A DNA stretch of 47,350 bases, from the NCBI GenBank assembly GCA_046759165.1, contig JBHIBS010000013.1, positions 1 to 47,350 on the forward strand, read 5' to 3'. The DNA is from a bacterium (GTDB taxonomy: Bacteria; UBA6262; WVXT01). The position numbers were made by a program, and so were the translations under genes. The notes under the pieces are model-generated. The model was not told where the DNA came from, searched no databases, and saw only the letters and a program-made list of their open reading frames with translations. Positions 11,593-39,010 of this stretch are shown one piece after another (position 1 is the stretch's first letter; each line of letters opens with the position of its first letter).

Positions 11593-11629
11593 CTTTGCCC
11601 CCGTTGAATTCAATAAAGACTTTATATTA

Positions 11630-12097: not shown

Positions 12098-12121
12098 TTC
12101 CATCCTCCTTTTATTATTTTA

Positions 12122-12148: not shown

Positions 12149-12158
12149 CTATCTTACA

Positions 12159-13358: not shown

Positions 13359-13993
13359 AGAAATCCCTTCCTTGACAGAAATTCCCTGCTTATACCAGCT
13401 TTCTCATTTCCTTTATTAATTAGATTCTCAACATATCTTGCTAAAATGTCCACTTCAATATTTACCGAATCGTTCACTTTCAGAAGACCAAAAGTTGTAA
13501 CCCTCTCGGTGTGGGGAATAATAGAGACAGAGAAACCTGCCCCATCCATTACTCGAACTACAGTCAAACTGACTCCATCTACACCAATTGAGCCTTTTGG
13601 CGCAATATATTTCAAAATTTCTGGAGAAGTTGCAATTTCGAAAAGCTTCCCACCTTTCTCTCTTACGATTGTTCTTACCTTTCCCAGACCATCTACATGC
13701 CCGCTGAGTAGATGTCCTCCCAGGCGTTCTCCTAATTTCAGGGCCCTCTCCAGATTTACTCTGCTTCCATTCCTTAAAGCGCCAAGCGTTGTACTCTTAA
13801 GAGTCTGGGGAGATAGATCTGCAGTGAAACTTCCAGATGGTCTGAGATTCTGGCTGCCCGCGACTGTAAGGCAGACACCATTGACAGAAATGGACTCGCC
13901 CACCTTTAAATCCTTCCATTCAGTTTCTATACTAATTCTATTCTGATTCTTCTTTACTACTGTCCCCATCTTCTCGATTATTCCAGTAAACAT
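13355..13993 (-). CDS. ribE: Riboflavin synthase alpha chain
   Basis: MFTGII, SISVNGVCLTV, VNLERAL, GGHLLSGHVDG, KGSIGVDGVSLTV. Confidence 0.97.
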   Translation of the reverse strand: MFTGIIEKMGTVVKKNQNRISIETEWKDLKVGESISVNGVCLTVAGSQNLRPSGSFTADLSPQTLKSTTLGALRNGSRVNLERALKLGERLGGHLLSGHVDGLGKVRTIVREKGGKLFEIATSPEILKYIAPKGSIGVDGVSLTVVRVMDGAGFSVSIIPHTERVTTFGLLKVNDSVNIEVDILARYVENLINKGNEKAGISREFLSRKGFL

Positions 13994-14017
13994 CTCTTCC
14001 CTTTCTTTCGAACCAAC

Positions 14018-15167: not shown

Positions 15168-15228
15168 ATTTCGTTTTACTTGAGTGAGGGATGTCTCTAC
15201 ATTATCTATTGATTAGATTCCTTACTGA

Positions 15229-15346
15229 AATCTTCTCCCATCCGGACTTTAACCGTCGGTACTGTAATTTCAACAGTTCGATCCTTATGTTACAGGGGTC
15301 GTGGACTTTCACCACCGATCGGGAATTTCACCCTATCCCGAAGACT
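15229..15346 (-). ncRNA. FMN riboswitch (RFN element)
   Basis: Minus: AGTCTTCGGGATAGGGTGAAATTCCCGATCGGTGGTGAAAGTCCACGA...ACCGACGGTTAAAGTCCGGATGGGAGAAGA, upstream of ribD. Confidence 0.97.
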
Positions 15347-15356
15347 TCTCATTAAT

Positions 15357-20669: not shown

Positions 20670-20698
20670 AATATATCAAAATAGTCTTAAATTATCAA
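20670..20698 (-). promoter_or_regulatory. Probable sigma70 promoter of smc
   Basis: TTGATA-17 nt-TATATT with extended TG. Confidence 0.6.
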
Positions 20699-20755: not shown

Positions 20756-21985
20756 TCATTCCAGAACTTCTTTCAACCTTTCAGTTAGCGCTGGAACGAC
20801 CTGGAAGAGGTCACCTTCAATACCGTAGGTGGCGACTTTGAAGATGGGAGCATTAGGGTCTTTATTAATTGCCACAATAATTTCTGAAGACTGCATGCCA
20901 ACGAGATGCTGAATGGCTCCAGAAATTCCACAGGCAATATATATTTTGGGACAGACAGTACGACCAGTCTGTCCTACTTGATGCGAATAGGCTATCCAGC
21001 CAGCATCAACTGTTGCTCGACTGGCACCGACAGCACCCCCTAAAGTGCGGGCCAATTCTTCAACAATATGGAAGTTTTCAGGACCCCCTAATCCGCGTCC
21101 TCCCGACACAATGATATCGGCATCGGCGAGCTTCACGGTCTGCGTTATGTCTTCAACCATATTCAAAAGTTTGGTCCTCAAGGAGAGGGCCTTACCGTCC
21201 ACACTCTCTTTTATGACCTCCCCCTGGCGATTCTTCTGCCTTACTCCCTTTTTAAAGACCTTGTGCCTGACCGTAGCCATTTGGGGACGATTGTGTGGGG
21301 TGGTAATAGTGGCCATGATGTTTCCTCCAAAAGCAGGCCTTGTCTGAAGAAGTTGCCTTTTCTTGAGGTCTATGACCAGTTCAGTACAATCGGCAGTAAG
21401 TCCTGTGCCCAGCCTTGCTGCTACACGCGAGGCAAAAGAACGGCCAATTGCGGTAGCGCCCATCAAAACGATCTCGGGCTTTTCCTTCTGGATCAGATCG
21501 GTAAGCACATCGGTATAGGGGTCATCTTGGAAATTTCTTAGGATAGATCCTTCAATTTGATAGACTTTATCTGCCCCACAGGCTATAAGCTCTTTGGCTG
21601 CTTCATCCATTCCCTCTCCTAACGACACACAAGAAAGTTTCTCCCCCAACTGGTCAGCCAACTTCCTTCCCTCGCCAAGAAGTTCATAGACAACTCCTTG
21701 AATTTTACCCTTCTTCTGTTCGGCAAAGACCCATATGCCTTTATACTGGGAGATATCAGGTCGAGGTTTCGCTTCCTCCCGCTCAATCAATATGGCTTGG
21801 AAAGAACAGGGCTCAAGGCAAGCTCCACAAAGATTACAACCTTGTCCAATCACGGCAATTTTCTTATACTTGGGATGCGGCTTGCCGACTTCTTCCCTTG
21901 AGACTATTTTGATTAACCCGAAGGGACAGAATTCTACGCAGAGCGAACAACCTGTACATTTATCTTCAAGAATCTTGATCCCCAA
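20756..21985 (-). CDS. etfA: Electron transfer flavoprotein alpha subunit with N-terminal 2x[4Fe-4S] ferredoxin domain (CarE-like)
   Basis: CTGCSLCVEFCP and CNLCGACLEPC; TGLTADC, RPAFGGN, SGGRG, QVGQTG, GISGAIQH. Confidence 0.95.
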   Translation of the reverse strand: MGIKILEDKCTGCSLCVEFCPFGLIKIVSREEVGKPHPKYKKIAVIGQGCNLCGACLEPCSFQAILIEREEAKPRPDISQYKGIWVFAEQKKGKIQGVVYELLGEGRKLADQLGEKLSCVSLGEGMDEAAKELIACGADKVYQIEGSILRNFQDDPYTDVLTDLIQKEKPEIVLMGATAIGRSFASRVAARLGTGLTADCTELVIDLKKRQLLQTRPAFGGNIMATITTPHNRPQMATVRHKVFKKGVRQKNRQGEVIKESVDGKALSLRTKLLNMVEDITQTVKLADADIIVSGGRGLGGPENFHIVEELARTLGGAVGASRATVDAGWIAYSHQVGQTGRTVCPKIYIACGISGAIQHLVGMQSSEIIVAINKDPNAPIFKVATYGIEGDLFQVVPALTERLKEVLE

Positions 21986-22000
21986 AAGTTTCTCCCGAAA

Positions 22001-22786
22001 TCAGATTACCTTTGCCTCGCGGAGCTTCTCCACTAATTTTCGAGCCTGTTCTTCAGGATTTCCGAGTATCATCTCTCCACCCTTACGAGGAGGCGGAGTA
22101 AATATCTTGTTGACAATTGTGGGAGAACCGGATTGTCCAATCCTGCTCTTTTCACAGGCAATATCGGAAGCATTCCAGATATGAATCTTGGCCTTTCTCG
22201 CCCACAACATTCCTTTTAAAGAGGGAAGCCTCGGCTCGTTAATTTCCTTAACCACTGTAATTAGAGCGGGAAGCCCCATCTCAATTACTTCATATCCCTC
22301 TTCCATCATCCTCTCTACTCTTATGCGAGCTTCGTTTATTTCTTCTATCTTCTTCACATAAGTAACTGCAGGAATTTCCAGTTTTTCTGCAATCCCCGGA
22401 CCGACCTGTGCTGTGTCTCCATCAATAGCCTGTTTACCACATATGACCAGGTCAAATTCGCCTATCTTCCTGATCCCGCACGCCAGGGTATAGGAAGTGG
22501 CTAAGGTATCACTTCCTGCAAAGCCGGGGTCGGTAAGGAGGACAGCTTCATCGCATCCCATAGATAGAGCCTCTCGGAGAGCCGATTCAGCCTGTGGAGG
22601 CCCCATGGAGATTACAGTTACCTTTCTCCCCATTTTCTCTTTGAGCCTCAGGCCTTCCTCGATCGCATAAGTATCGAATGGGTTTACAATGGATTCGATC
22701 CCCTCACGAATCAAAGTGTTGGTCCTAGGGTCAATTTTTACCTCTGTTGTTCCTGGCACCTGTTTAATGCAGACGATGAAGTTCAT
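22001..22786 (-). CDS. etfB: Electron transfer flavoprotein beta subunit (bifurcating-type motifs)
   Basis: CIKQVP, NPFD..AIE, FAGSDTLATS, GKQAIDGDTAQVGP. Confidence 0.96.
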   Translation of the reverse strand: MNFIVCIKQVPGTTEVKIDPRTNTLIREGIESIVNPFDTYAIEEGLRLKEKMGRKVTVISMGPPQAESALREALSMGCDEAVLLTDPGFAGSDTLATSYTLACGIRKIGEFDLVICGKQAIDGDTAQVGPGIAEKLEIPAVTYVKKIEEINEARIRVERMMEEGYEVIEMGLPALITVVKEINEPRLPSLKGMLWARKAKIHIWNASDIACEKSRIGQSGSPTIVNKIFTPPPRKGGEMILGNPEEQARKLVEKLREAKVI

Positions 22787-23946
22787 TTTTTTGTTCTAGC
22801 TGCCTCCTTTATCAAGGCAAGTCCTATTTCATTTCTCATAATCTGGTTTGTCCCTTCATAGATCTGGGTGATTTTGGCATCACGCATTCGCTTTTCCATG
22901 GGATACTCACGCATATATCCATAGCCTCCGTAAACTTGAACAGCGTTAGTGGTAACCCTCATAGCCGTGTCCGAAGCAAAGAGTTTACACATCGCTGCCT
23001 CTTTGGTAACTCTCGCTTTTGGGTCTTTATCGATCATCCTGGCAGTAGCATAAACTAACGCTCGAGCTGCCTCTACTTCGGTTGCCATATCGGCTAAAAG
23101 GTGCTGGATTGCCTGAAAGGAAGAGATGGGCTGTCCGAACTGGATTCTCTCCCTGGAATAATTAATCGCATCCTCCAGAGCACCACAAGCAATCCCAAGA
23201 GCCTGAGCGGCCACCCCAGGGCGTGAAGCATCGAAAGTTTTCAAAGCAATTATAAATCCCTGTCCCTCTCTCCCTAAAAGATTCTCTTTGCCAGTTTTGC
23301 ACTTATTAAAAATCAGTTCTCTTGTCGGAGAACTGCGAATGCCCATCTTCTTCTCTTTCTTTCCAAAAGAGAAGCCAGGAGTATCTTTTTCAACAATGAA
23401 AGCAGATGCTCCCCGGGATCCCTTTGTTTTGTCCGTCATGGCAATTACTACATAAATTTGCGCTTCACCCCCATTGGTAATGAAGCATTTTGTACCATTT
23501 AGGATATAGCTTTCTCCCTCCTTCTTAGCGGTGGTCTGGAGAGCTGAGGCATCGGAACCAGCACCTGGCTCAGTGAGGGCAAAAGCTGCCACTTTCTTAC
23601 CCGCCGCAATATCCGGAAGATATTTCTTCTTCTGTTCATCACTACCGAAAAGGAGAATAGGAAAAGTAGCAAGGGCTGTGGCAGCTAAGATCAAAGCGAT
23701 TCCTCCATCAACTTTGCAGAGCTCTTCCACTGCAAGGCATAGTTCAAATACCCCTCCCCCAGTTCCGCCATACTCCTCAGGAATATAGACCCCACAAAGG
23801 TCTGCTTTAGCCAGCTCCTCCAAAATCGGCCAGGGAAATTCTTCAGTCTCATCATAGTGCTCCCGTACTGGCTTGATCTTCTCCTCAGCAATCCTTCTCG
23901 TTAATTCACGAAGCATCTTTTGTTCTTCAATAAGAAAGTATTCCAT
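22783..23946 (-). CDS. Acyl-CoA dehydrogenase (Bcd/CarC-like)
   Basis: FALTEPGAGSDA, LNGTKCFITNG, KMGIR, R.QFGQPI..FQAIQ, GGYGY, IYEGTNQI catalytic Glu; ATG 23946 with GGAGG. Confidence 0.95.
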   Translation of the reverse strand: MEYFLIEEQKMLRELTRRIAEEKIKPVREHYDETEEFPWPILEELAKADLCGVYIPEEYGGTGGGVFELCLAVEELCKVDGGIALILAATALATFPILLFGSDEQKKKYLPDIAAGKKVAAFALTEPGAGSDASALQTTAKKEGESYILNGTKCFITNGGEAQIYVVIAMTDKTKGSRGASAFIVEKDTPGFSFGKKEKKMGIRSSPTRELIFNKCKTGKENLLGREGQGFIIALKTFDASRPGVAAQALGIACGALEDAINYSRERIQFGQPISSFQAIQHLLADMATEVEAARALVYATARMIDKDPKARVTKEAAMCKLFASDTAMRVTTNAVQVYGGYGYMREYPMEKRMRDAKITQIYEGTNQIMRNEIGLALIKEAARTKK

Positions 23947-24005
23947 ATCGCCCTCCAAAAAACTTAGAGCTGAAAACTTGTGTTTTATTTTGCATTTTCC
24001 CTTTA

Positions 24006-24677
24006 TTATTTCTTAGTTCTAATCTTCTTGAGTGCCTGTTTAGCTGCTTCTTGTTCGGCTGTCTTTTTGCTCCAACCCATGCCACGACCAAAAATTCTCT
24101 TTTTCACTTTTACTTCCATTTCAAAAAATTTCCTGTGGGCCGGACCTGACTCTGTCTTCACCCTATATTCCGGTAAAATCTTATGTCTCTTTTGAATCAA
24201 CTCTTGTAGACGACTCTTATAATCCACCTTCCTTATTCCCTTAAGCATGAAAATCTGTCCCAGAATAAACTTCCTTACCTTATCCCAGTCCTGGTCCTGG
24301 TATATTGCACCAATTAAGGCCTCCAAAGCATTACTTAAGAGAGAAGCTCTCTGGCGACCGCCTGTTGCTTCCTCTTCTTCACTTATCAAAAGATAGTCGC
24401 CCAAGGACAATTTTTTGGCCCAAAGCAGAAGGGACTTTCGGTTTACCAAGCTCGATTTCAGCTTAGTCAACTTCCCCTCGTCGTACGCTGGATACCGATG
24501 ATAAAGGTACTCAGATATCACTAAATTCAGCACGCTGTCCCCCAGAAACTCGAGTCGTTCATTATCTTCTTTTAGACCATACATATAAGCATAAGATTTA
24601 TGTGTCAAAGCCCGCTGAAACAGTTCTTTGTTTTTAAAATTTATCCTTAACTTTCGCTCAAGATCCTTCAAGTTCAT
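24006..24677 (-). CDS. rnc: Ribonuclease III
   Basis: ALTHKS, NERLEFLGDSVL, EALIGAIY, dsRBD DYKSRLQE..SKKTAEQEAA; ATG 24677 preferred. Confidence 0.98.
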   Translation of the reverse strand: MNLKDLERKLRINFKNKELFQRALTHKSYAYMYGLKEDNERLEFLGDSVLNLVISEYLYHRYPAYDEGKLTKLKSSLVNRKSLLLWAKKLSLGDYLLISEEEEATGGRQRASLLSNALEALIGAIYQDQDWDKVRKFILGQIFMLKGIRKVDYKSRLQELIQKRHKILPEYRVKTESGPAHRKFFEMEVKVKKRIFGRGMGWSKKTAEQEAAKQALKKIRTKK

Positions 24678-24723
24678 CTTGCAATAACGCCCCAATCCTT
24701 CGGAAAAGGTCTAATTAGAAACC

Positions 24724-24878
24724 TGCACGACCTGAGGTCGCACCTAAGAGATTTCATTCGAGCAACTGAAAGGAGTATAGTCCCGACCAATCGGGACTTC
24801 GCTTCGTTCATAAATGACAGTCGATAATAAAAATATCTAAATTCAAAACATATGGATCCCCGATTTCATCGGGAATGC
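24724..24878. repeat. Mosaic of short palindromic repeats between fabF and rnc
   Basis: cgacc-tga-ggtcg (24728), agtcccga-ccaa-tcgggact (24779), cttcgcttcgttcataaatgaca, cccgat-ttc-atcggg (24859). Confidence 0.55.
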
Positions 24879-24921
24879 AGGTAATGGCGGCATAGGAATG
24901 CAGAAGACATTATGTCTCTCG

Positions 24922-26157
24922 TCAATACCTTCTTACTATCAAGGTGGCATTATGGCCACCAAAACCTAAAGAGTTGGAGAGAGCTACATTGATTTTTTTA
25001 GGGCGGGCCTTATTGGGGACATAGTCCAGGTCACATTCGGGATCAGGAAATTCATAGTTTATTGTTGGAGGAAGCATCTCTTTCTCCATGCCAAGAATTG
25101 TGGCGATTAATTCTACAATTCCTGCTGCTCCCAGGAGGTGCCCGATCATAGATTTATTCGATGAAATGGGAATCTTGTAGGCATAGTCCCCGAAAACTTT
25201 TTTTATGGCAATGGTTTCTACCTTATCGTTTAAGGGAGTGGAAGTGCCGTGAGCATTTATGTAATCGACTTCTTCGGGCTTTACACCAGCATCGGCTAAA
25301 GCATTAGACATAGCCCGCGCGGCACTCTGCCCGTCAGGAGAGGGAGCAGTAATATGGTAAGCATCGTCTGTAGCGCCGTAACCAATCAGTTCGGCGCAAA
25401 TGGAAGCTCCACGAGAAAGGGCGTGATCTAATGATTCTAAAACGACAATTCCGGCTCCTTCTCCCATCACAAAACCATCTCTCTCCTTATCGAAAGGTCG
25501 ACTAGCATGTTCGGGATCGTCGTTTCGAGTAGACAAGGCTTTGGCTGAGCAGAAGCCAGCAAGACCCAAGGGAGTAACTGCCGCTTCTGAACCGCCTGCA
25601 ATAATTACATCTGCATCCCCATAACAGATAAGGCGTAAAGCATCTCCTACCGTATGGTTACTGGTAGCACAGGCACTCGATAACGAATAGTTCGGCCCCT
25701 GGATACTGTAAGCAATGGCAATTTCTCCAGCAGCAATATTGGTAATTAGCATGGGAATCATGAAAGGACTTACCCGACGAGGCCCCTTCTCTAATAATGT
25801 CCTATGTTCCGCAGCAACAGTGGCTATCCCTCCTATGCCAGAGCCCACGATAACTCCTACTCGAAAAGGATCTTCTCTCTCCATATCAAGCTTTGCGTCC
25901 TCTATGGCTATCTTCGCAGCAGCAAACGCAAATTGAGTAAAACGGTCCATCCTTCTAAGCTTTTTCTTACCAATATATTTTTCTGGCTCGAAATTCTTTA
26001 CTTCAGCACAAATCTGGGATGAGAATTGAGAGACATCAAAGGATGAGACTCTATTTACGCCCGATTTTCCACTAACCAGGGAGTTCCAGAAATCATCTTT
26101 TCCGATTCCGATTGGCGAAATAACTCCGTATCCCGTAATCACTACTCTCCGGTTCAT
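24922..26157 (-). CDS. fabF: 3-oxoacyl-ACP synthase II
   Basis: [54 protein letters not shown]. Confidence 0.98.
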
Positions 26158-26185
26158 TCCCCCTCCAAAAATTCAACCAGAAGAA

Positions 26186-26236
26186 AATAAAATACAAAAC
26201 CGCTACCATGCCAAAAATTCCTGCTGTGTAGCGGTT
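26186..26236 (-). terminator. Stem-loop with T-rich tail after acpP (partial terminator or mRNA stabiliser)
   Basis: AACCGCTAC...GTAGCGGTT 9-bp inverted repeat followed by TTGTATTTT on minus. Confidence 0.5.
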
Positions 26237-26256
26237 CTCTTCCAGTTAGTTTAGGA

Positions 26257-26490
26257 TTAAGATTTATGTTTATTAATATAGTCGATTGCTTTACCAACTG
26301 TATCTAATTTCTCTGCTTCTTCGTCTGGGATCTCAATATTAAATTCTTCTTCCAGTGCCATTACAAGTTCTACAGTGTCCAAAGAATCGGCTCCTAGGTC
26401 GTTAACGAATGAAGCCTCCATAGTCACTTCTTCCGGATCTACCCCGAGCTGTTCAACAATGATTTCTTTTACCTTTTCGGCTACTGACAT
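26257..26490 (-). CDS. acpP: Acyl carrier protein
   Basis: [20 protein letters not shown]. Confidence 0.99.
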
Positions 26491-26553
26491 TTTATTTTTT
26501 CACCTCCACAGAAAATTGTGTAACCAAGTATAAAGTTACATGTTTTGAGACTT

Positions 26554-27294
26554 CTACATCCCCATGCCGCCATCTACTCTAATTACTTCTCCAGTAATAT
26601 AACTGGATTTTTCAGATACTAAAAATAGAACCGCGCTAGCCACATCTTCGGGATTCCCTATCTTACCCAAAGGAATTTGAGAAGATAATTTCTCCTTTAC
26701 TTCCACAGATAATCGTTCGGTCATGCTCGTTTGGATAAAGCCTGGAGCCACAGCATTAACATTTATTTGGCGGCTGGCGAGTTCTTTGGCACACGTCTTG
26801 GTTAAAGCAATCAGCCCTCCCTTAGAGGCTGAGTAGTTAGCTTGACCAGCGTTCCCACTTATCCCCACAATTGAAGCAATATTAACAATCTTTCCAGTCC
26901 TCTGCTTCATCATGACGGGTGAAACCATCTTAATACAATTAAATGCGCCCTTGAGGTTAATATCCAAAACCAGATCCCAATCCTCCTCCTTCATGCGCAT
27001 TACAAGTGCATCTCGGGTTACTCCAGCGTTGTTGATTAATATATCAATTCTGCCAAATTTGTCAAGAGTTTTTTTCACCATTTCTTCAACCGAAGAGAAA
27101 CTGGAGACATCCACCCCAATGGAGATAGCTTCACTCCCTTTTTGGGAAACTTCTTCCGCAGTAGATTTGGCTGTTTCTTCCGCCACATCTGCTATAACTA
27201 CATTTGCCCTAGATAAAGCCAGCTGAGTAGCAATGGACTTTCCAATCCCCCGTGCTCCACCAGTTACAATCGCTACCCTACCTTTTAAATCCAA
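26554..27294 (-). CDS. fabG: 3-oxoacyl-ACP reductase
   Basis: TGGARGIG, NNAGVTRD, GNAGQANYSASK, VAPGFI; TTG start. Confidence 0.97.
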   Translation of the reverse strand: MDLKGRVAIVTGGARGIGKSIATQLALSRANVVIADVAEETAKSTAEEVSQKGSEAISIGVDVSSFSSVEEMVKKTLDKFGRIDILINNAGVTRDALVMRMKEEDWDLVLDINLKGAFNCIKMVSPVMMKQRTGKIVNIASIVGISGNAGQANYSASKGGLIALTKTCAKELASRQINVNAVAPGFIQTSMTERLSVEVKEKLSSQIPLGKIGNPEDVASAVLFLVSEKSSYITGEVIRVDGGMGM

Positions 27295-27331
27295 AATCGA
27301 TCACCCCCTATATCCTCCATATGCCAATTAA

Positions 27332-27502
27332 AAGATAGTTTGTGAAAAGCTTCAGGAATTTTAGCGAAAAAACAAGGACGACTCTTTCGCTTAAAAGCAA
27401 ATCGTTCTTTGACGAGCGAAGCGAGGAGTTCTGATTTGCGCCTTACAGAGTCCGAAGTTTTTTGGCGTTAAAAAATTCCTTTTGCGCTGAACAAGCTATC
27501 TT
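27332..27502. mobile_element. MITE-like nested inverted-repeat element, copy B (171 bp) flanked by TTAA
   Basis: TTAA-AAGATAGTTTGT...ACAAGCTATCTT-TTAA; the right TTAA contains the fabD stop codon; internal layout shared with 5449-5624. Confidence 0.65.
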
Positions 27503-28465
27503 TTAATTGAATGTTTCCAATTTCTTAAGGGTTTCCTGAAGGCTTCCTTCGTCTTCCACATTTAGTCCAGAAGGCCCTTTCGTTATCCTACCTAAAAGTC
27601 CGGTTAAGACCCTCCCTGGGCCCACCTCGACAAAAATCTCTACACCTCTCGTGAGCATCTCCTTTACGCTTTCTTCCCATAGTACAGGATTATCTATTTG
27701 TGAAATCAATGCTTTTCTGATTTCTTCCCGTGAAGTTGCCAGTTTCGCATTATAATTTGTTACCACGGGAATAATTGGGGCTCTCAACTCAAAATTCTCC
27801 AATTCTCTGGCTAGACTCTTGCGGGCTTGGGCCATCAAACTGGAATGGAAAGCTCCGCTAACTTTTAGAATAACAGCTCTCTTTGCCCCTTTTAATTTAG
27901 CTCTCTCTACAGCTCTCTGACAAGCTCTCAATTCTCCCGCAATAACTATCTGAACAGGAGAATTGAAATTCACAGCTTCCAGTACCTCCTCTCTTCTAAC
28001 CTCCCCGATAACTTCTTCTATTTTCCCTCTTTTCAGTCCTATAATCGCTGCCATGGCTCCGGGCTTCTCTCGGGAAGCCTTGTGGATAAACTCAGCCCTT
28101 TTTTGAACCAGTGATAAGGCTTGGGGAAAATCAAAGACCCCTGCAGCAACTAAAGCAGTATATTCTCCGAGGCTATGGCCTGCCACAATTTGCGGTCTTA
28201 AGATTTCCCTAGAAGAGTAACTTTCAGGTCCCTTGAGAACTTCTAAACAAGCGAGACTTATAGTAAAGACGGCGGGTTGAGTAACTAAGGTTTGTTGTAA
28301 CTCCTGTTCAGGGCCATAAAAAATTTTTCTTCTAAGGTCGTAACCTAAAATATCATTAGCCCCATCAATAATCTCCCTCGCCGGGGCGTACCTTTCGTAG
28401 AGTCCTTTCCCCATGCCCACGTATTGTGAGCCCTGACCAGGAAAGAGAAAAGCAACTTTTACCAT
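27503..28465 (-). CDS. fabD: Malonyl-CoA:ACP transacylase
   Basis: FPGQGSQ, TQPA, GHSLGEY, VSGAFHS, EVGPG. Confidence 0.98.
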   Translation of the reverse strand: MVKVAFLFPGQGSQYVGMGKGLYERYAPAREIIDGANDILGYDLRRKIFYGPEQELQQTLVTQPAVFTISLACLEVLKGPESYSSREILRPQIVAGHSLGEYTALVAAGVFDFPQALSLVQKRAEFIHKASREKPGAMAAIIGLKRGKIEEVIGEVRREEVLEAVNFNSPVQIVIAGELRACQRAVERAKLKGAKRAVILKVSGAFHSSLMAQARKSLARELENFELRAPIIPVVTNYNAKLATSREEIRKALISQIDNPVLWEESVKEMLTRGVEIFVEVGPGRVLTGLLGRITKGPSGLNVEDEGSLQETLKKLETFN

Positions 28466-29436
28466 TTAATCACACAGGAACCCCAGGTGAACCCAGCACC
28501 AAAGGCAACCAGTTCTATAATATCTCCTTCTTTAATTCTGCCCTGGTGATGCGCCTGATCCAGAGCAATAGCAACGGTGGCCGCTGAAGTATTTGCACAT
28601 TTATCAATATTTACGAAGATCCTCTCCATAGGCAGAGATAATCTCTTTGCCAATGTTTTTATTATCCTGATATTTGCCTGATGTGGTATCAACAGCGCTA
28701 CGTCTTCTATCTTGAGTCCACAATTTTCCAATCCTCGTTTGACAGAGTTTACCATTTCCGGTATGGCAATTCTGAAAGTCTCGTTTCCCCTCATTTTCAG
28801 GTAATGCAATCTCTTCTTAACTGTTCTGATAGTTGCCGGGAGCCTCGATCCCCCAGCTGGCATGTTCAACAAATCCCCATACTGACCATTTCCATCTAAA
28901 TAACAAGAGAGAATTCCTGACTCACCTTTCTGTTTTCTCAAAACTGCTGCTCCCGCACCATCCCCCAAAAGCACGCAAGTATTCCTATCCTCCCAGTCAG
29001 TAATTTTAGAAAGAGCCTCGGTGGCAATGACAAGCGCTGTTTTATATGTCCCAGTCTGTAAAAATTGCTGAGCAGTGGAAAGAGAGTAAATAAAGCCAGT
29101 GCAGGCAGCATTTAAATCAAAAATAGCGGCATTTTTTATCCCTAACTTAGACTGTATTATACAGGCTGTTGAAGGGAAGAACATATCGGGAGTAACCGTT
29201 GCCACAATAACTAAGTCGATATCTTCAACTTTCACATTAGCATCTTTCAGTGCTCCCTCTGCAGCTTTAATCCCCAGATCAGAGGCAGCCTCTTTATCGG
29301 AAGATATCCTTCTCTGCCTGATTCCGGTACGACTTACAATCCACTCATCGGATGTATGGACCATTTTCTCAAGATCCTTATTGGTTAAGACTTTCTCTGG
29401 CAGATATGACCCAGTTCCAACTATGTGGACCCTCAC
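28459..29436 (-). CDS. fabH: 3-oxoacyl-ACP synthase III
   Basis: TSDEWIVSRTGI, AACTGF, GDGAGA, PHQAN, NTSAA, FGAG; GTG 29436 preferred (GGAG 10 nt upstream). Confidence 0.97.
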   Translation of the reverse strand: MRVHIVGTGSYLPEKVLTNKDLEKMVHTSDEWIVSRTGIRQRRISSDKEAASDLGIKAAEGALKDANVKVEDIDLVIVATVTPDMFFPSTACIIQSKLGIKNAAIFDLNAACTGFIYSLSTAQQFLQTGTYKTALVIATEALSKITDWEDRNTCVLLGDGAGAAVLRKQKGESGILSCYLDGNGQYGDLLNMPAGGSRLPATIRTVKKRLHYLKMRGNETFRIAIPEMVNSVKRGLENCGLKIEDVALLIPHQANIRIIKTLAKRLSLPMERIFVNIDKCANTSAATVAIALDQAHHQGRIKEGDIIELVAFGAGFTWGSCVIKW

Positions 29437-29449
29437 TGTTTTCAAACTC

Positions 29450-30430
29450 CTATAGACTTTCTTTGATTTGTTGATTGATCCTCTTTTCCACAAATTCTCC
29501 TGCTACCCGGATAGCATTTGAAATTGCCTTGGCGTTGGAACTGCCGTGGCAAATAATGGAACAGCCATCGACACCCAAAAGAGGAGCTCCTCCATATTCA
29601 GCATAATCGACTTTCTTCTTGATATCTCTGAAAGCGCCTCTCAACAATATAAGCGCCATTTTTCGGAAAGGATATTTTAGAATTTTATCTCTAAATAGAT
29701 TCATAAATTCTTCAGCTATACCCTCACCAAATTTCAGAAGAATATTGCCCACAAATCCATCACAGACGATAACATCAGCCTTTCCTTTCAGAATATCTCT
29801 CCCTTCTATGTTGCCCACAAAATTCAATCCGCTCTGGCGCAGCAGACGATGAACTTCCACAGTCACCTCATCACCCTTGGCTTCTTCCACCCCGATACTC
29901 AATAGTCCGATGCGGGGAGCCTCTTTCTTCATGATTGTCTTCATATAGATGTTGCCCATTACAGCGAACTGGAGCAAATCTTTTGCCGTAGAGTTAACGT
30001 TTGCGCCAACATCAAGAAGAACGACTGCACCTTTTAGAGTAGGTATTAATACAGCAATACCAGGCCGATCGACTCTTGACAATCTCCCCAGAACCATCAA
30101 TGCTGAGGCCATGACTGCACCCGAGTTTCCTGCAGAAACCATGGCGTCAGCCATACCTTCCTTGATTAATCGGGTAGCAACCATGATTGACGAATCTTTC
30201 TTCTGGCGACAAGCTATCGCAGGCGACTCATCCATACCGATAACCTCTGAACAGTGGCGAATTGAGAGGGGTAGAGATGAACTTCGATAGTTTTTCATCT
30301 CCTCTCTTAACCGGGCTCCATCGCCCACCAAAATTATTTCGTAAAGGTTTCTTTGGGCAGCTTGAACTGCTCCTTCTACAACCACTTTTGGAGCGTGGTC
30401 TCCACCCATGGCATCCACAGCAATTCGCAT
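29450..30430 (-). CDS. plsX: Phosphate acyltransferase PlsX
   Basis: IAVDAMGGDHAP, SAGNSGA, LDVGAN, CDGFVGN, YGGAPLLGV, HGSS. Confidence 0.98.
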   Translation of the reverse strand: MRIAVDAMGGDHAPKVVVEGAVQAAQRNLYEIILVGDGARLREEMKNYRSSSLPLSIRHCSEVIGMDESPAIACRQKKDSSIMVATRLIKEGMADAMVSAGNSGAVMASALMVLGRLSRVDRPGIAVLIPTLKGAVVLLDVGANVNSTAKDLLQFAVMGNIYMKTIMKKEAPRIGLLSIGVEEAKGDEVTVEVHRLLRQSGLNFVGNIEGRDILKGKADVIVCDGFVGNILLKFGEGIAEEFMNLFRDKILKYPFRKMALILLRGAFRDIKKKVDYAEYGGAPLLGVDGCSIICHGSSNAKAISNAIRVAGEFVEKRINQQIKESL

Positions 30431-30445
30431 AAATAAGACCTCTTA

Positions 30446-30661
30446 TTAACTTTTCCCTTTTCTTTTCCTTTCCTCTTCTATCTCTTTTTTCGTCTTAATT
30501 ACCTTTTCTTCATCATAATAGCCGCAATTGAAGCAAGCAAAATGGGGAAGCTTAAATTCCTTACACATCGGGCAAACAGATAGAGTAGGGATATCCAGTT
30601 TCCAGTTGGCTCTTCGTTTATTTCGTCTGGAAACAGAATGTCTTCTCTTGGGATTAGCCAT
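30446..30661 (-). CDS. rpmF: 50S ribosomal protein L32 (zinc-ribbon type)
   Basis: MANPKRRHS..RR.KRR, CPMC..KLPHFACFNCGYY. Confidence 0.97.
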   Translation of the reverse strand: MANPKRRHSVSRRNKRRANWKLDIPTLSVCPMCKEFKLPHFACFNCGYYDEEKVIKTKKEIEEERKRKGKS

Positions 30662-30848: not shown

Positions 30849-32252
30849 TCACGTGCTTCTGGAGCCCTCCATCAGATATTGATGAATTGCCCCAGCGCTC
30901 CTCCTGCCAGAAGCCATAGCGGAAATGACTGTGGCTGCACCACTCACAATGTCTCCTCCAGCCCAGACATCTTCCTTTGAGGTCTTTCCAGTGGTTTCAT
31001 TTGCTGCAATATAGCCCCATTTGTTTACTTTCAGGTCTGGGGTAGCAGATGGAAGTAGAGGGTTGGCACCAGCGCCGATAGCCATTACTACTACATCAAT
31101 CCCTATGGTGAATTCAGAACCCTTAATCGGTACTGGCCGGCGGCGTCCAGACTCATCAGGCTCTCCTAGTTCCATCCTTATACATTCAATTCCAGTAACC
31201 CAACCCTCCTTATTGCCAAGAATCCGGATCGGATTGGTCAGAAATTTTAATTTCACTCCCTCATCCTCGGCATTTTGAATCTCTTCCAGCCGCGCAGGCA
31301 TTTCTTGTCGGGAACGACGGTAAATATTGAATACCTGTTCAGCTCCTAACCTCAGGGCTGTGCGAGAAGCATCCATTGCCACATTTCCCCCTCCTATCAC
31401 TGCAACCCTCCTGCCAATTTTTACGGGGGTATCGTACTCAGGAAATTGGTATGCCTTCATCAGATTGGTTCTGGTCAAAAATTCGTTCGCTGAATAGACA
31501 CCATTGAGGTTTTCACCGGGAATGTCCATAAACTTGGGTAAACCAGCCCCAATTCCAATGAAAATAGCATCGTACCCCTGGGAAAAAAGTTCATCCAGGG
31601 TATAAATCTTGCCAATCACATAGCCAGTCTTTACTTCCACCCCAAGGGAGCGGATGTACTCTATTTCCTTTTGCACAATAGCTTTGGGTAAGCGAAATTC
31701 TGGAATCCCATAGACCAGAACGCCCCCCGGTTTATGTAATGCTTCGAAAATGGTCAGATTATGCCCCAACCTGGCTAAATCGCCAGCACAAGATAAGCCG
31801 CCAGGACCAGAGCCAACAACCGCCACGCGTTTTCCTGTAGGGGTAGGGAGTCGTGAGCTTTCTCGATTCCCCTTCTGGAGTTCCCGATCAGCAGCGAAGC
31901 GTTCCAGACGTCCAATAGCAACCGGGTCGTACTTTTTAGATAGGGTACAGGCCTTTTCGCAAAGCCCCTCCTGTGGGCATACTCTCCCACACATAGCTGG
32001 TAAGAGATTCTTCTCCTTAATCTTACGGATAGCTGCCTGGTAATCCTTCTCAATAATCCGGGCAATAAAACTAGGAATATCGACTTCCACTGGACAAGCC
32101 TTGATACAGGGAGCCTTCTTACATTGGAGACACCTTCTTGCCTCCTCTTGAGCTTGGTCCTCCGAATAGCCCAAAGCCACCTCATCGAAATTGTTCACCC
32201 TGATTCTGGGCTTCTGACGCGGCATTTTAACTTTTTTAGGAGCAATTTTCAT
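30849..32252 (-). CDS. nfnB: NfnB/SudA large subunit (GltD-like) of bifurcating transhydrogenase
   Basis: EARRCLQC..PC...CP, CGRVCPQE..CE, GSGPGG, YGIPEFRLPK, GGGNVAMD, GGDIVSGAATVI; overlaps nfnA; no gltB nearby. Confidence 0.88.
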   Translation of the reverse strand: MKIAPKKVKMPRQKPRIRVNNFDEVALGYSEDQAQEEARRCLQCKKAPCIKACPVEVDIPSFIARIIEKDYQAAIRKIKEKNLLPAMCGRVCPQEGLCEKACTLSKKYDPVAIGRLERFAADRELQKGNRESSRLPTPTGKRVAVVGSGPGGLSCAGDLARLGHNLTIFEALHKPGGVLVYGIPEFRLPKAIVQKEIEYIRSLGVEVKTGYVIGKIYTLDELFSQGYDAIFIGIGAGLPKFMDIPGENLNGVYSANEFLTRTNLMKAYQFPEYDTPVKIGRRVAVIGGGNVAMDASRTALRLGAEQVFNIYRRSRQEMPARLEEIQNAEDEGVKLKFLTNPIRILGNKEGWVTGIECIRMELGEPDESGRRRPVPIKGSEFTIGIDVVVMAIGAGANPLLPSATPDLKVNKWGYIAANETTGKTSKEDVWAGGDIVSGAATVISAMASGRRSAGAIHQYLMEGSRST

Positions 32253-33094
32253 TTGAGTCTACCATATTTATGGACCGAATTATACCGCTGGAGAGCTTTC
32301 TTCTCCTGTTCTAGGTAAATTCTCTGACGGCTGAGGAGTTGGTCAAAATCTACCTGGTGACCATCGAAATCTGGACCGTCCACACAGACGAACTTTGTTT
32401 TCCCCCCTACCGAAATTCTGCAAGCGCCACACATTCCAGTAGCATCGACCATTATGGGATTGAGACTCACTATAGTCCTCAATTTATAGGGCCTGGTTAC
32501 CTCGCAAACAGCACGCATCATAAGAGTCGGTCCCACTGCAAAGACTAAACCCAACTCTCCCCTTCCTTCCATTAGCCTTCGCAATTCATCAGATACAAAA
32601 CCTTTTCGACCATAAGAACCATCATCAGTAGTAATGTAAATTTCGTCCGAGACAGAGGCTATCTTGTCTTCCCAGATTACGAGTTCCCTGGTGCGAGCAC
32701 CGATAATCGATATAACCCTGTTTCCAAATTCTTTAAAGCCACGAGCCACGGGATAGACGGGTGCTATTCCCACACCTCCAGCTACACAAACTACTGTGCC
32801 TATATTTTCCATATGGGTGGGGATACCTAAAGGCCCAATAACATCAGAAAGGGTATCGCCTGAATTTAACCCTCCTATCTGGTAAGTAGTTTTTCCTGCT
32901 TCCTGAACCACAATGGTTATGGTTCCTTTAGCTCTATCATACTCTGCAATAGTTAAAGGAACTCTCTCTCCTCTCTCATCAATCCTCACCACTACGAATT
33001 GTCCAGGCTGAGCTTTTCTGGCAGTCTCTGGACAAGATATTAGAAATTCTTTTATAGAGGGAGCCAGATTTTGTTTACTTAAAATCTTGTGCAT
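32249..33094 (-). CDS. nfnA: NfnA/SudB small subunit (FAD, [2Fe-2S])
   Basis: PGQFV, GERVPLTIA, GPLG, GGVG, MVDATGMCGACR..CVDGPDF. Confidence 0.9.
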   Translation of the reverse strand: MHKILSKQNLAPSIKEFLISCPETARKAQPGQFVVVRIDERGERVPLTIAEYDRAKGTITIVVQEAGKTTYQIGGLNSGDTLSDVIGPLGIPTHMENIGTVVCVAGGVGIAPVYPVARGFKEFGNRVISIIGARTRELVIWEDKIASVSDEIYITTDDGSYGRKGFVSDELRRLMEGRGELGLVFAVGPTLMMRAVCEVTRPYKLRTIVSLNPIMVDATGMCGACRISVGGKTKFVCVDGPDFDGHQVDFDQLLSRQRIYLEQEKKALQRYNSVHKYGRLK

Positions 33095-38979: not shown

Positions 38980-39010
38980 TTTCCCTCCCAAACCTAAGCG
39001 CCCAGCTCCC

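What the first reader, a model, noticed from the sequence alone, without database searches (positions are those of the whole stretch)
20756..30661. Fatty-acid synthesis operon without an enoyl-ACP reductase but with an embedded bifurcating Bcd/EtfB/Fd-EtfA module: candidate electron-bifurcating enoyl reductase for FAS II
Seen: rpmF-plsX-fabH-fabD-fabG-acpP-fabF-rnc runs into an acyl-CoA dehydrogenase 59 nt after the rnc stop, with no strong terminator visible, then etfB and etfA. smc follows with its own promoter-like sequence. No fabI/fabK/fabL/fabV occurs in the window, and no thiolase, crotonase, hbd or CoA-transferase accompanies the dehydrogenase. Known: rnc-smc are often adjacent and fabK commonly sits in this cluster in anaerobes; Bcd/EtfAB and CarCDE reduce enoyl-CoA with NADH while reducing ferredoxin. 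Inference: this trio may do the enoyl-ACP reduction of each elongation cycle and conserve energy as reduced ferredoxin; alternatively it supplies acyl-CoA primers for FabH. Caveat: fabZ is also absent, so the cluster is not self-contained.
Basis: partly seen in the sequence, partly recalled or inferred. Interest (0 to 1): 0.8.

Follow-up and report, generated by a model that had tools for sequence, protein, structure and literature searches.

The report
Candidate flavoprotein enoyl reductase for lipids
In this uncultured anaerobe the fatty-acid synthesis genes run into a three-gene flavoprotein complex of the type that reduces enoyl-CoA while also making reduced ferredoxin; the genome and its relatives show none of the four known enzymes for the last step of fatty-acid elongation, so this complex probably does that step, which would be a new, energy-saving kind of enoyl reductase, though it is still untested.

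Summary
On the minus strand lie rpmF-plsX-fabH-fabD-fabG-acpP-fabF, a 226-244 nt structured spacer, rnc, then 59 nt on acd, etfB (4-nt overlap) and a ferredoxin-fused etfA, then smc.

The reading is supported by comparative evidence only.
- **Own genome (92% complete):** this is its only acyl-CoA dehydrogenase and only Etf pair. No crotonase or thiolase was found, and no FabI, FabK, FabL or FabV.
- **Own phylum:** the other 11 genomes sampled also carry this Acd and lack all four reductases and crotonase.
- **The one FabK-like gene:** it is a FabX homologue (unsaturated-fatty-acid enzyme), not FabK.
- **Synteny:** Acd orthologues (58-93% identity) form one clade that holds all 29 fab-linked copies of 100 sequences. 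They sit in three different slots of fab clusters in several phyla.

Against:
- 11 of 55 clade-bearing genomes also have a canonical reductase.
- 10 of 23 non-clade genomes show none, so the catalogue of reductases is incomplete.
- Nothing shows ACP recognition, direction or bifurcation.

Best explanation (about 0.55): a CarCDE/Bcd-EtfAB-type, NADH-dependent, ferredoxin-reducing enoyl-ACP reductase of FAS II.

This scan has noted the same pattern before on other DNA. Six library searches found no paper proposing it.

The parts
30446..30661 (-). rpmF (ribosomal protein L32), head of the cluster
   Evidence: PF01783, TIGR01031
29450..30430 (-). plsX, phosphate acyltransferase (takes acyl-ACP into phospholipid synthesis)
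   Evidence: TIGR00182, 365 bits, cut-off 243
28459..29493 (-). fabH, ketoacyl-ACP synthase III
   Evidence: NF006829, 436 bits
27503..28465 (-). fabD, malonyl-CoA:ACP transacylase
   Evidence: TIGR00128, 334 bits
26554..27294 (-). fabG, 3-oxoacyl-ACP reductase
   Evidence: TIGR01830, 333 bits, cut-off 298
26257..26490 (-). acpP, acyl carrier protein (DSL motif invariant in alignment A4)
   Evidence: NF002149, 130 bits; alignment
24922..26157 (-). fabF, ketoacyl-ACP synthase II
   Evidence: TIGR03150, 647 bits
24696..24921 (-). fabF-rnc spacer with a terminator-like hairpin (24876-24856) and two further hairpins; possible terminator, attenuator or processing site
   Evidence: MFE -70.6 kcal/mol, z = -1.9
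24006..24695 (-). rnc, RNase III (likely start ATG at 24677)
   Evidence: TIGR02191, 258 bits; sequence
22783..23946 (-). acd, Bcd-like acyl-thioester dehydrogenase/reductase; catalytic Glu364 in IYEGT is invariant; proposed enoyl-ACP reductase subunit
   Evidence: Pfam three ACAD domains; PDB 5OL2_C 434 bits, 4L1F 424, 6FAH_C 335; invariant E364 in 45 orthologues; only ACAD in the genome
22001..22786 (-). etfB, small Etf subunit of the bifurcating type; start overlaps the acd stop by 4 nt
   Evidence: PDB 6FAH_B CarD 272 bits; all 5 matches at E<=1e-30 are from bifurcating complexes
20756..21985 (-). etfA with an N-terminal 2x[4Fe-4S] ferredoxin domain (CxxCxxCxxxCP and CxxCxxCxxxC), CarE-like
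   Evidence: Pfam Fer4 + ETF + ETF_alpha; PDB 6FAH_A CarE 429 bits, aligned from residue 1 to 406
20670..20698 (-). promoter-like site ahead of smc
   Evidence: 10 of 12 with TG; consensus match only
30849..33094 (-). nfnA-like (32249-33094) and nfnB/gltD-like (30849-32252) pair directly upstream of rpmF; possible NADPH supply from NADH plus reduced ferredoxin
   Evidence: NF004862, 411 bits; TIGR01316, 612 bits; the same order is seen in the 7 family genomes whose fetched DNA reaches upstream of rpmF

Best explanation
acd-etfB-etfA encode a CarCDE/Bcd-EtfAB-type flavoprotein complex that serves as the enoyl-ACP reductase of type II fatty-acid synthesis in this organism.

Proposed mechanism, by homology:
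- NADH reduces the bifurcating FAD on EtfB.
- One electron goes uphill, through the two [4Fe-4S] clusters of the N-terminal domain of EtfA, to ferredoxin.
- The other goes through the FAD of EtfA to the FAD of Acd.
- After two rounds, Acd reduces trans-2-enoyl-ACP to acyl-ACP, with Glu364 as the proton donor.
- Net reaction: enoyl-ACP + 2 NADH + Fd(ox) gives acyl-ACP + 2 NAD+ + Fd(red).

Shown: gene content and homology; the tight coupling of the three genes; that they are the only ACAD and only Etf pair found in the genome; no known enoyl-ACP reductase and no enoyl-CoA pathway found; and the conserved link to fab genes.

Inferred: ACP as the carrier of the substrate, the reductive direction, and bifurcation to ferredoxin.
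For: (1) Homology.
- Acd matches the Bcd of bifurcating complexes best: 5OL2_C 434 bits, 4L1F 424 bits.
- EtfA aligns full-length to CarE, ferredoxin domain included (429 bits).
- EtfB matches CarD best, and only bifurcating Etfs pass E<=1e-30.

(2) Own genome (92.4% complete).
- One ACAD and one Etf pair.
- 0 crotonase, 0 thiolase C-domain, and only 23-26-bit Rossmann hits for Hbd.

(3) FAS II is otherwise complete and is needed. The fab cluster and plsX are present. LpxC-FabZ lies inside a bamA-skp-lpxD-lpxC/fabZ-lpxA-lpxI-lpxB-msbA cluster.

(4) No canonical reductase in the own genome.
- FabK model: best hit 127 bits against a cut-off of 453. That gene is a FabX homologue (7E1Q 244 bits against FabK 81 bits; four-Cys motif).
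- The 3 non-FabG SDRs show no FabI or FabL among their top families.
- FabI, FabL and FabV models gave 0 hits, and tblastn with exemplars agrees.
- The FabV model does ring elsewhere: G058, G064 and G082 are over cut-off.

(5) Own phylum. 12 of 12 genomes (76-98% complete) have the Acd. 0 of 12 have FabI, FabK, FabL or FabV, and 0 of 12 have crotonase.

(6) Synteny.
- fab...fabF-rnc-acd is seen in the window and 9 phylum genomes, and in G013, G015, G022, G025 and G027 of other lineages.
- In named MAGs, acd follows fabF or rnc (Omnitrophota and others), lies between fabH and fabG (Desulfobulbus-type), or lies ahead of rpmF/fabD (Dehalococcoidia). This covers 15 of 37 loci with Acd >=58% identical.
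- 0 of 43 loci below 58% are fab-linked.

(7) Tree of 100 Acd sequences. All 29 fab-linked copies fall in one 57-tip clade (support 0.92), and none of the 43 outside it is fab-linked.

(8) Neighbours. In 12 clade loci not next to fab genes, 52 neighbouring ORFs were scanned. 0 is a crotonase, Hbd, thiolase or CoA-transferase.

(9) Crotonase. 16 of 18 clade-bearing genomes of the first sample lack it, against 1 of 7 comparators with several ACADs.
Against: - **Co-occurrence with known reductases.** 11 of 55 clade-bearing genomes also carry a canonical or near-canonical reductase.
  - G027, G063 and G070 have FabL over cut-off plus a FabK-like gene.
  - G071 and G073 (Desulfobulbus-type, acd-etfBA inside the fab cluster) have FabL.
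  - G047 has FabI; G058 and G064 have FabV; G057, G065 and G076 have FabK-like genes of 237-421 bits.
  - Strict replacement therefore does not hold.
- **Incomplete catalogue.** 10 of 23 non-clade genomes of the first sample (9 of them with FabF) show none of the four reductases. Their fab clusters hold no acd. An unrecognised reductase could exist here too.
- **Possible hitch-hiking.** rnc and smc are common neighbours of fab genes. acd-etfBA-smc also occurs without fab genes (L046). Part of the linkage could be hitch-hiking in a housekeeping supercluster.
- **Transcription.** A 226-244-nt structured spacer with a terminator-like hairpin separates fabF from rnc-acd.
- **Etf adjacency.** In G013, G015, G022 and G027 no etfBA follows acd. 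Etf genes lie elsewhere in those genomes.
- **Substrate.** No residue-level or structural evidence for ACP docking was obtained. All characterised close relatives use CoA thioesters.
- **Data quality.** Most genomes are MAGs, and completeness is not reported for G041-G090.
Confidence: 0.55

Rival explanations
1. An ordinary bifurcating enoyl-CoA reductase (Bcd/Car/Acr-like) acting on a CoA thioester not yet recognised. Its place after fabF-rnc reflects hitch-hiking in a conserved housekeeping cluster. The true enoyl-ACP reductase is an unrecognised protein elsewhere.
For: - All characterised close homologues use CoA esters. The best NCBIfam model is acryloyl-CoA reductase AcrC, at 483 bits, below its 640 cut-off.
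- 10 of 23 non-clade genomes also lack any recognised reductase, so unknown reductases exist.
- acd-etfBA-smc occurs without fab genes in L046.
- 22 of 37 loci with Acd >=58% identical show no fab gene nearby, though many of those contigs are short.
Against: - No crotonase, thiolase or real Hbd in the genome.
- No crotonase in 12 of 12 phylum genomes.
- It is the only ACAD in the genome.
- No CoA-pathway gene among 52 neighbours in 12 non-fab loci.
- The fab linkage recurs in three different gene orders in different phyla, which hitch-hiking behind rnc does not explain.
Confidence: 0.17
2. An acyl-ACP dehydrogenase working in the oxidative direction for anaerobic unsaturated-fatty-acid synthesis. 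This would be the role FabX plays in Helicobacter pylori, with Etf carrying the electrons away.
For: - FabX shows that a flavoenzyme can dehydrogenate acyl-ACP within FAS II (PMC8626469: abstract and passages).
- No FabA, FabB or FabM-type route was seen; the only FabA-family hit is the LpxC-FabZ fusion.
- This reading would explain co-occurrence with FabL, FabK or FabV in 11 of 55 genomes.
Against: - The genome already has a FabX homologue with the four-Cys cluster motif.
- Under this reading the whole phylum (12 of 12) would have no enoyl-ACP reductase at all.
- The 8 family relatives keep acd-etfBA but have no FabX-like gene at E<=1e-20. The conserved, apparently essential function therefore sits with acd-etfBA.
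Confidence: 0.1
3. It is the FAS II enoyl reductase, but it does not bifurcate. Either plain NADH-to-Etf-to-Acd transfer occurs, or reduced ferredoxin is the donor through the Fe-S domain of EtfA.
For: - Bifurcation is inferred from homology only.
- In G027 the Etf elsewhere in the genome has a 329-aa EtfA frame, too short for a ferredoxin domain.
- Some clade genes have no adjacent Etf.
Against: - EtfB and EtfA are closest to CarDE and to the Etfs of Bcd and Lct complexes. No non-bifurcating EtfB passes E<=1e-30.
- Both Cys motifs of the ferredoxin domain are intact.
Confidence: 0.12
4. It supplies saturated short acyl-CoA primers to FabH.
For: fabH lies in the same cluster.
Against: - No route to an enoyl-CoA precursor: no crotonase, thiolase or real Hbd.
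- By established knowledge (recalled), branched primers come from 2-oxoacid oxidoreductases without an ACAD.
Confidence: 0.03

Closest known systems
CarCDE, the caffeyl-CoA reductase-Etf complex of Acetobacterium woodii (PDB 6FAH)
   Same: Three subunits in the same roles. EtfA carries the same N-terminal two-cluster ferredoxin domain (429 bits, aligned over residues 1-406). EtfB is closest to CarD (272 bits).
   Different: Acd is nearer to clostridial Bcd (434 bits) than to CarC (335 bits). The genomic context is fatty-acid synthesis, not phenylacrylate respiration. The proposed substrate is carried on ACP, not CoA.
Bcd-EtfAB, the electron-bifurcating butyryl-CoA dehydrogenase complex (C. difficile 5OL2; A. 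fermentans 4L1F/4KPU; M. elsdenii 1BUC)
   Same: The best sequence matches of Acd (E 4e-129 and 4e-126). Same acd-etfB-etfA gene order. Catalytic Glu in YEGT conserved.
   Different: No thiolase, Hbd or crotonase genes in the genome. The Acd belongs to a separate clade from the Bcd genes of butyrate-type loci such as L112, L030 and L084. EtfA has an extra ferredoxin domain.
Canonical enoyl-ACP reductases FabI, FabL (SDR), FabK (NMO/FMN) and FabV
   Same: The proposed reaction and the place in the pathway. In some genomes acd-etfBA lies between fabH and fabG, a slot that I recall fabK occupying in Firmicutes.
   Different: Unrelated fold and cofactors: ACAD/FAD plus Etf instead of a single NAD(P)H enzyme. 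Three subunits. Predicted co-reduction of ferredoxin.
FabX of Helicobacter pylori (PDB 7E1Q-7E1S; PMC8626469)
   Same: A flavoenzyme that acts on acyl-ACP inside FAS II and passes electrons through an Fe-S cluster. It sets a precedent for non-canonical redox enzymes in FAS II.
   Different: Different fold (NMO) and a different reaction (dehydrogenation/isomerisation). This genome has its own FabX homologue elsewhere (G000:C21).
ACAD-fold enzymes that act on carrier-protein-bound substrates (MbtN acyl-ACP dehydrogenase; prolyl-carrier-protein dehydrogenases such as PDB 4IRN)
   Same: They show that the ACAD fold can accept phosphopantetheine-tethered substrates on a carrier protein (family names as given).
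   Different: Only distant similarity: MbtN model 64 bits against a 700 cut-off, RedW model 271 against 650, 4IRN 221 bits. They oxidise, and they work in secondary metabolism.

Membership tests
Bifurcating Bcd/Car-type acyl-thioester dehydrogenase-Etf complexes | ACAD subunit with three ACAD domains and the catalytic Glu | tested here: met
   PF02771, PF02770 and PF00441. E364 in IYEGT is invariant in 45 orthologues. 5OL2_C 434 bits.
Bifurcating Bcd/Car-type acyl-thioester dehydrogenase-Etf complexes | EtfB and EtfA of the bifurcating (NADH-binding, two-FAD) type | tested here: met
   By homology only. The 5 EtfB matches at E<=1e-30 all come from bifurcating complexes (6FAH, 7KOE, 5OL2, 4KPU, 7QH2). 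The same five lead for EtfA. Individual NADH and FAD contact residues were not checked.
Bifurcating Bcd/Car-type acyl-thioester dehydrogenase-Etf complexes | CarE-type N-terminal 2x[4Fe-4S] ferredoxin domain on EtfA | tested here: met
   Fer4 families. Two CxxCxxCxxxC motifs, aligned with CarE from residue 1.
Bifurcating Bcd/Car-type acyl-thioester dehydrogenase-Etf complexes | A CoA-thioester substrate supplied by pathway genes (thiolase/Hbd/crotonase, or CoA-transferase/ligase) | tested here: not met
   0 crotonase, 0 thiolase C-domain and no real Hbd in the genome. None in the window. 0 crotonase in 12 of 12 phylum genomes.
Bifurcating Bcd/Car-type acyl-thioester dehydrogenase-Etf complexes | NADH-dependent, ferredoxin-reducing activity | not testable with these tools
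   Needs enzymology.
Canonical enoyl-ACP reductases (FabI, FabL, FabK, FabV) | Sequence membership of any gene in the genome | tested here: not met
   TIGR03151 best hit 127 bits against 453. NF005717, NF005975 and NF010177 gave no hit. SDRs scanned. tblastn with exemplars.
Enoyl-ACP reductase (function, whatever the fold) | Acts on ACP-bound trans-2-enoyl substrates of C4-C16 | not testable with these tools
One complex prediction gave no verdict (see Tried and rejected).
Enoyl-ACP reductase (function, whatever the fold) | Genomic association with FAS II and complementarity with the known reductases | tested here: met
   Fab linkage in three arrangements. Clade-bearing genomes with a canonical reductase: 11 of 55, against 23 of 36 others. 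The complementarity is imperfect.
FabX (for the NMO-family gene at G000:C21, not for acd) | NMO fold with a C-terminal four-Cys [4Fe-4S] subdomain in place of the NAD(P)H site | tested here: met
   7E1Q 244 bits against FabK 7L00 81 bits. C-x3-C-x3-C-x7-C near the C-terminus, compared with C300/C304/C308/C320 in FabX (PMC8626469).

The most novel reading that the evidence does not exclude
In this phylum and many other anaerobic lineages, the primary enoyl-ACP reductase of FAS II is a flavin-based electron-bifurcating Acd-EtfB-(Fd)EtfA complex. Each elongation cycle then returns one reduced ferredoxin.

In this family the adjacent NfnAB-like pair uses that ferredoxin plus NADH to make the NADPH that FabG consumes. 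Lipid synthesis would then run on NADH alone as a closed redox loop and would conserve energy. This would be a fifth, mechanistically distinct class of enoyl-ACP reductase.
Probability: 0.3. Interest if true: 0.9.

Novelty: new variant of a known kind. Interest (0 to 1): 0.8.

Why it matters
Enoyl-ACP reduction is the step that pulls each fatty-acid elongation cycle forward. It is also a classic antibiotic target. Four reductase families are known (recalled), yet many anaerobic phyla have no recognisable one. One search gives one published example of a missing fabI.

If an ACAD/Etf complex does this step, three things follow:
- The gap is filled for a wide range of uncultured anaerobes: Omnitrophota, Planctomycetia, Dehalococcoidia, Elusimicrobia, Desulfobulbus-type bacteria and this vent lineage.
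- Flavin-based electron bifurcation is linked to an anabolic core pathway for the first time. This changes energy and redox budgets, and lipid hydrogen-isotope interpretation, for such organisms.
- A triclosan-type-insensitive reductase becomes available for engineering anaerobic fatty-acid production.

The idea is directly testable with standard enzymology and fabI(Ts) complementation.

Tried and rejected
- **Complex prediction.** Complex prediction with Acd x2 + FAD x2 + AcpP, using alignments A3 and A4 (job, collected): no verdict (score 0.01, mark 0.32). This is not evidence either way.
- **Expression.** The look-up of sequencing runs: no RNA holder listed, so expression and co-transcription could not be examined.
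- **Literature.** Six full-text searches found no paper proposing an ACAD/Etf enoyl-ACP reductase. Most subscription journals are outside that library. No supplements were opened.
- **The NMO-family gene at C21 as FabK.** Rejected: it is FabX-like, and no such gene was found in the 8 family relatives.
- **Other SDR or MDR genes as hidden reductases.**
  - The C36 FabG-like SDR and the neighbouring Tdh-like MDR sit in an inositol/sugar-uptake cluster.
  - The C19 SDR is KduD-like.
  - The C84 SDR is a contig-end fragment whose best families are acetoin reductase and FabG.
  - None can be excluded biochemically.
- **A reductase next to FabZ.** The lipid A cluster holds only a GFO/IDH/MocA oxidoreductase.
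- **Clade-specific residues.** The clade is less acidic (mean net charge -2.4 against -6.3). It has K/R-enriched columns at window residues 23, 25, 28, 209, 303 and 310. Without coordinates I could not place these near the substrate entrance, so I treat this as a hint only.
- **Promoter and terminator scan.** Totals are no higher than in shuffles, so operon structure stays open.
- **Rfam.** No match in the fab-acd region.
- **The FabL-model hit in G015 (189 bits).** This is the cluster's own fabG and was not counted as FabL.
- **Thresholds.** My thresholds for 'FabK-like' (237 bits or more) and 'FabI' (230 bits or more) are my own. FabX-like proteins scored 120-190 bits on the FabK model.

Full report
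**What is there.**

All genes of the finding lie on the minus strand. Pfam and NCBIfam name them without ambiguity: rpmF, plsX, fabH, fabD, fabG, acpP, fabF, rnc, then an acyl-CoA dehydrogenase (acd, 22783-23946), etfB (22001-22786) and etfA (20756-21985), then smc.

The spacing is as follows:
- The rnc stop (24008-24006) and the acd ATG (23946, behind GGAGGG) are 59 nt apart, with no terminator-like site between them.
- acd and etfB overlap by 4 nt.
- etfB and etfA are 15 nt apart.
- A promoter-like site lies before smc.

It is 226-244 nt long and holds a terminator-like hairpin and two other hairpins (fold z = -1.9). It is therefore open whether acd is transcribed with fabF or only with rnc. 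The observation itself is confirmed.

**What the three proteins are.**

- **Acd** matches best the butyryl-CoA dehydrogenases of electron-bifurcating complexes: 5OL2_C 434 bits, 4L1F 424 bits, 1BUC 381 bits, CarC 6FAH_C 335 bits. It keeps the catalytic Glu in IYEGT.
- **EtfA** aligns from its first residue with CarE of the caffeyl-CoA reductase complex. This includes the N-terminal domain with two CxxCxxCxxxC motifs (429 bits).
- **EtfB** is closest to CarD. The only EtfB chains that pass E<=1e-30 come from bifurcating complexes.

By homology this is a CarCDE/Bcd-EtfAB-type complex.

**The rest of the genome.**

The window is contig C13 of a 1.89-Mb MAG in 165 contigs, 92.4% complete.
- This acd is its only ACAD, and this is its only Etf pair.
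- No crotonase family member, no thiolase C-domain and no real 3-hydroxyacyl-CoA dehydrogenase were found. The controls rang in 12-14 of 14 reference genomes.
- FabZ exists as an LpxC-FabZ fusion inside a bamA-skp-lpxD-lpxC/fabZ-lpxA-lpxI-lpxB-msbA cluster.

The organism therefore makes lipid A and needs long acyl-ACPs.

None of the four canonical enoyl-ACP reductases was found.
- The FabK model gives one hit of 127 bits against a cut-off of 453.
- The FabI, FabL and FabV models give none. The FabV model is validated by hits over cut-off in G058, G064 and G082.
- Besides FabG, three SDRs were found: a KduD-like one, a FabG-like one in a sugar/inositol cluster, and a contig-end fragment.
- tblastn with FabI, FabK, FabL and FabV exemplars agrees.

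The 127-bit gene (G000:C21, 361 aa) is not FabK.
- It matches H. pylori FabX (7E1Q) at 244 bits, against 81 bits for the best FabK.
- It has a C-x3-C-x3-C-x7-C motif where FabX binds its [4Fe-4S] cluster (C300/304/308/320; PMC8626469, passages read).
- According to that paper, the cluster domain replaces the NAD(P)H site of FabK.

**Relatives.**

The first sample was 41 genomes: the own genome plus 40 relatives.
- The Acd has orthologues of 89-93% identity in all 8 genomes of the family.
- It has orthologues of 65-66% identity in the 3 other genomes of the phylum.
- It has orthologues of 61-68% identity in six genomes listed only as 'same domain' (G013, G015, G022, G024, G025, G027).

Synteny:
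- The order fab...fabF-rnc-acd is seen in the window, in 9 phylum genomes, and in G013, G015, G022, G025 and G027.
- The contigs of G010, G011 and G024 are too short to tell. G011 shows rnc-acd.
- In G013, G015, G022 and G027 no etfBA follows acd, but Etf genes lie elsewhere in those genomes.

The second sample came from a scan of one genome per species, using an alignment of eight orthologues. It returned 80 named loci.
- Of the 37 loci with Acd >=58% identical, 15 show fab genes next to acd, in three different orders:
  - behind fabF or rnc (five Omnitrophota loci, L033, L055, L062);
  - between fabH and fabG (L048, two Desulfobulbus loci, L063, L066);
  - ahead of rpmF/fabD-fabG-acpP (two Dehalococcoidia loci).
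- None of the 43 loci below 58% is fab-linked.

A tree of 100 Acd sequences was built. One partial sequence, L066, was dropped.
- All 29 fab-linked copies fall in one clade of 57 tips (support 0.92).
- None of the 43 sequences outside it is fab-linked.

In 12 clade loci without fab neighbours, 52 neighbouring ORFs were scanned. They are unrelated housekeeping genes, and none belongs to a butyrate or beta-oxidation pathway.

**Complementarity with known reductases.**

My thresholds were: FabK-like 237 bits or more, FabI 230 bits or more, FabL and FabV strong or over cut-off.

| Sample | Group | Genomes with a canonical reductase | Calls |
|---|---|---|---|
| First | Clade-bearing | 1 of 18 (G027: FabL 358 bits, FabK-like 303 bits) | 34-37 |
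| First | Others | 13 of 23 | 34-37 |
| Named | Acd >=58% identical | 10 of 37 | 47, 58, 59, 77 |
| Named | Acd <58% identical | 10 of 13 | 47, 58, 59, 77 |
| Both | Clade-bearing | 11 of 55 | as above |
| Both | Others | 23 of 36 | as above |

In the own phylum the count is 0 of 12, at completeness 76-98%.

These genomes are related to one another, so no statistical test is offered.

Two results count against a simple replacement model.
- Five genomes with acd inside or behind the fab cluster have FabL over its curated cut-off: G027, G063, G070, G071 and G073.
- Ten non-clade genomes of the first sample show none of the four reductases. Nine of them have FabF, and their fab clusters are plain rpmF-plsX-fab-rnc without acd. 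The list of known reductases, or my detection of them, is therefore incomplete.

Crotonase gives a cleaner contrast.
- It was found in 0 of 12 phylum genomes, and also not in G015, G022, G024 or G025.
- It is present only in G013 and G027, which belong to the subclade that also has other ACADs and canonical reductases.
- It is present in 6 of 7 comparators with several ACADs.

**How it most likely works.**

The most economical reading is that Acd-EtfB-(Fd)EtfA is the enoyl-ACP reductase of FAS II here.

From established knowledge of Bcd-EtfAB and CarCDE (recalled, not from a call):
- NADH reduces the bifurcating FAD on EtfB.
- One electron goes to ferredoxin, here probably through the Fe-S domain of EtfA.
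- The other goes through the FAD of EtfA to the FAD of Acd, which reduces the enoyl thioester.
- The enoyl/acyl thioester couple, near -10 mV (recalled), is what makes the uphill reduction of ferredoxin by NADH possible. The same thermodynamics would hold for an ACP thioester.

Shown here: the parts, their homology, their uniqueness in the genome, the missing alternatives, and the conserved association with fab genes.

Inferred: the ACP substrate, the direction, and bifurcation.

I put this reading at about 0.55. It would be higher for 'some role in FAS II' and lower for the full bifurcating mechanism.

**Rivals.**

(a) A CoA-specific reductase for an unrecognised substrate, with an unknown enoyl-ACP reductase elsewhere (0.17). 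All characterised homologues use CoA, and unknown reductases evidently exist. However, the genome has no route to an enoyl-CoA, and the linkage recurs in three gene orders.

(b) An acyl-ACP dehydrogenase for unsaturated fatty acids, like FabX (0.10). This would explain co-occurrence with FabL, FabK or FabV. But the genome already has a FabX homologue, and the phylum would be left with no reductase.

(c) A reductase that does not bifurcate, or that takes electrons from ferredoxin (0.12).

(d) Primer supply for FabH (0.03).

**Comparison with what is known, and novelty.**

The complex is a member, by sequence, of the bifurcating ACAD-Etf family. It is not a member of any known enoyl-ACP reductase family. 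Its proposed job would make it a new class of that enzyme function.

ACAD-fold enzymes that work on carrier-protein-bound substrates exist (MbtN and prolyl-carrier-protein dehydrogenases; family names), but they are only distantly related.

Six searches of the open-access library and bioRxiv found no paper proposing this. Subscription journals are largely outside that library.

This scan has noted the same pattern before on other DNA: Bacteroidales, Nitrospirota, Omnitrophota, Saganbacteria and others. Those are unchecked AI notes. I formed the reading before seeing them.

This report adds:
- the whole-phylum absence of FabI/K/L/V and crotonase;
- the identification of the FabK-like gene as FabX-like;
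- the clade test on a tree;
- the counter-examples (FabL, FabK-like or FabV together with the clade);
- the baseline of 10 non-clade genomes without any recognised reductase.

**What could not be done.**

- No RNA run holds the region.
- The one complex prediction of Acd dimer with AcpP gave no verdict.
- No structure coordinates were available to place the clade-specific basic residues.

**Verdict.**

Comparative evidence supports it well, but it is biochemically untested.

Noticed in passing
window 30849-33094 (-): An NfnAB-like pair (NF004862, 411 bits; TIGR01316, 612 bits) lies directly upstream of rpmF. The order ndk-nfnA-nfnB-rpmF-plsX-fab is kept in the 7 family genomes whose fetched DNA reaches that far, but not in G009. 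It could turn reduced ferredoxin plus NADH into the NADPH that FabG needs.
   Followed up: partly
G000:C21:26479-27618 (-) = L011:8477-9562: A FabX homologue (7E1Q 244 bits) with a C-x3-C-x3-C-x7-C motif. Similar 120-190-bit NMO genes occur in many clade-bearing genomes: G009, G015, G024, G025, G041, G043-45, G053, G060, G062, G071-74 and G077. No such gene was found in the 8 family relatives.
   Followed up: partly
G000:C37:8018-9346 (-) = L012:6016-7341: An LpxC-FabZ fusion (NF009667, 509 bits) inside a bamA-skp-lpxD-lpxC/fabZ-lpxA-lpxI-GFO/IDH-lpxB-msbA cluster. This is the only FabA/FabZ-family gene found, and it shows that the organism is a diderm with lipid A.
   Followed up: yes
window 15226-15349 (-): An FMN riboswitch (RF00050, 105 bits) ahead of ribD-ribE-ribBA-ribH-nusB (11170-15124).
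   Followed up: no
L020:8926-10242 (G006) and L017-L019 (G004, G003, G008): The rnc-acd junction tolerates insertions. In G006 a 348-aa membrane protein (my reading: ACR3-like) and a small protein with a CTGNSCRS motif (my reading: ArsC/LMW-phosphatase-like; neither was scanned) sit between rnc and acd. In G003, G004 and G008 hairpin-forming repeats lengthen the spacer. The TTTTTTGGAGGG-N4-ATG region before acd stays conserved.
   Followed up: partly
window 24696-24921 (-): The structured fabF-rnc spacer has three hairpins. It could be a terminator or attenuator, or an RNase III autoregulatory site.
   Followed up: partly
L114-L122 (G040, G014, G019, G026, G033, G034, G037, G038, G039): Nine genomes with FabF and ordinary fab clusters have none of FabI/K/L/V and no clade Acd. 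Further unrecognised enoyl-ACP reductases probably exist.
   Followed up: partly
L046:10001-16621 and L052: acd-etfB-etfA-smc adjacency recurs in a Planctomycetia MAG without fab genes upstream, and in an Omnitrophota MAG behind fabF.
   Followed up: no
window 8090-9130 (-) and 36886-47350 (-): A DUF362 protein with a two-cluster ferredoxin insert. Further on lies a long envelope-polysaccharide cluster: glycosyltransferases, epimerases, UDP-glucose dehydrogenase, and a B12-binding radical SAM protein.
   Followed up: no
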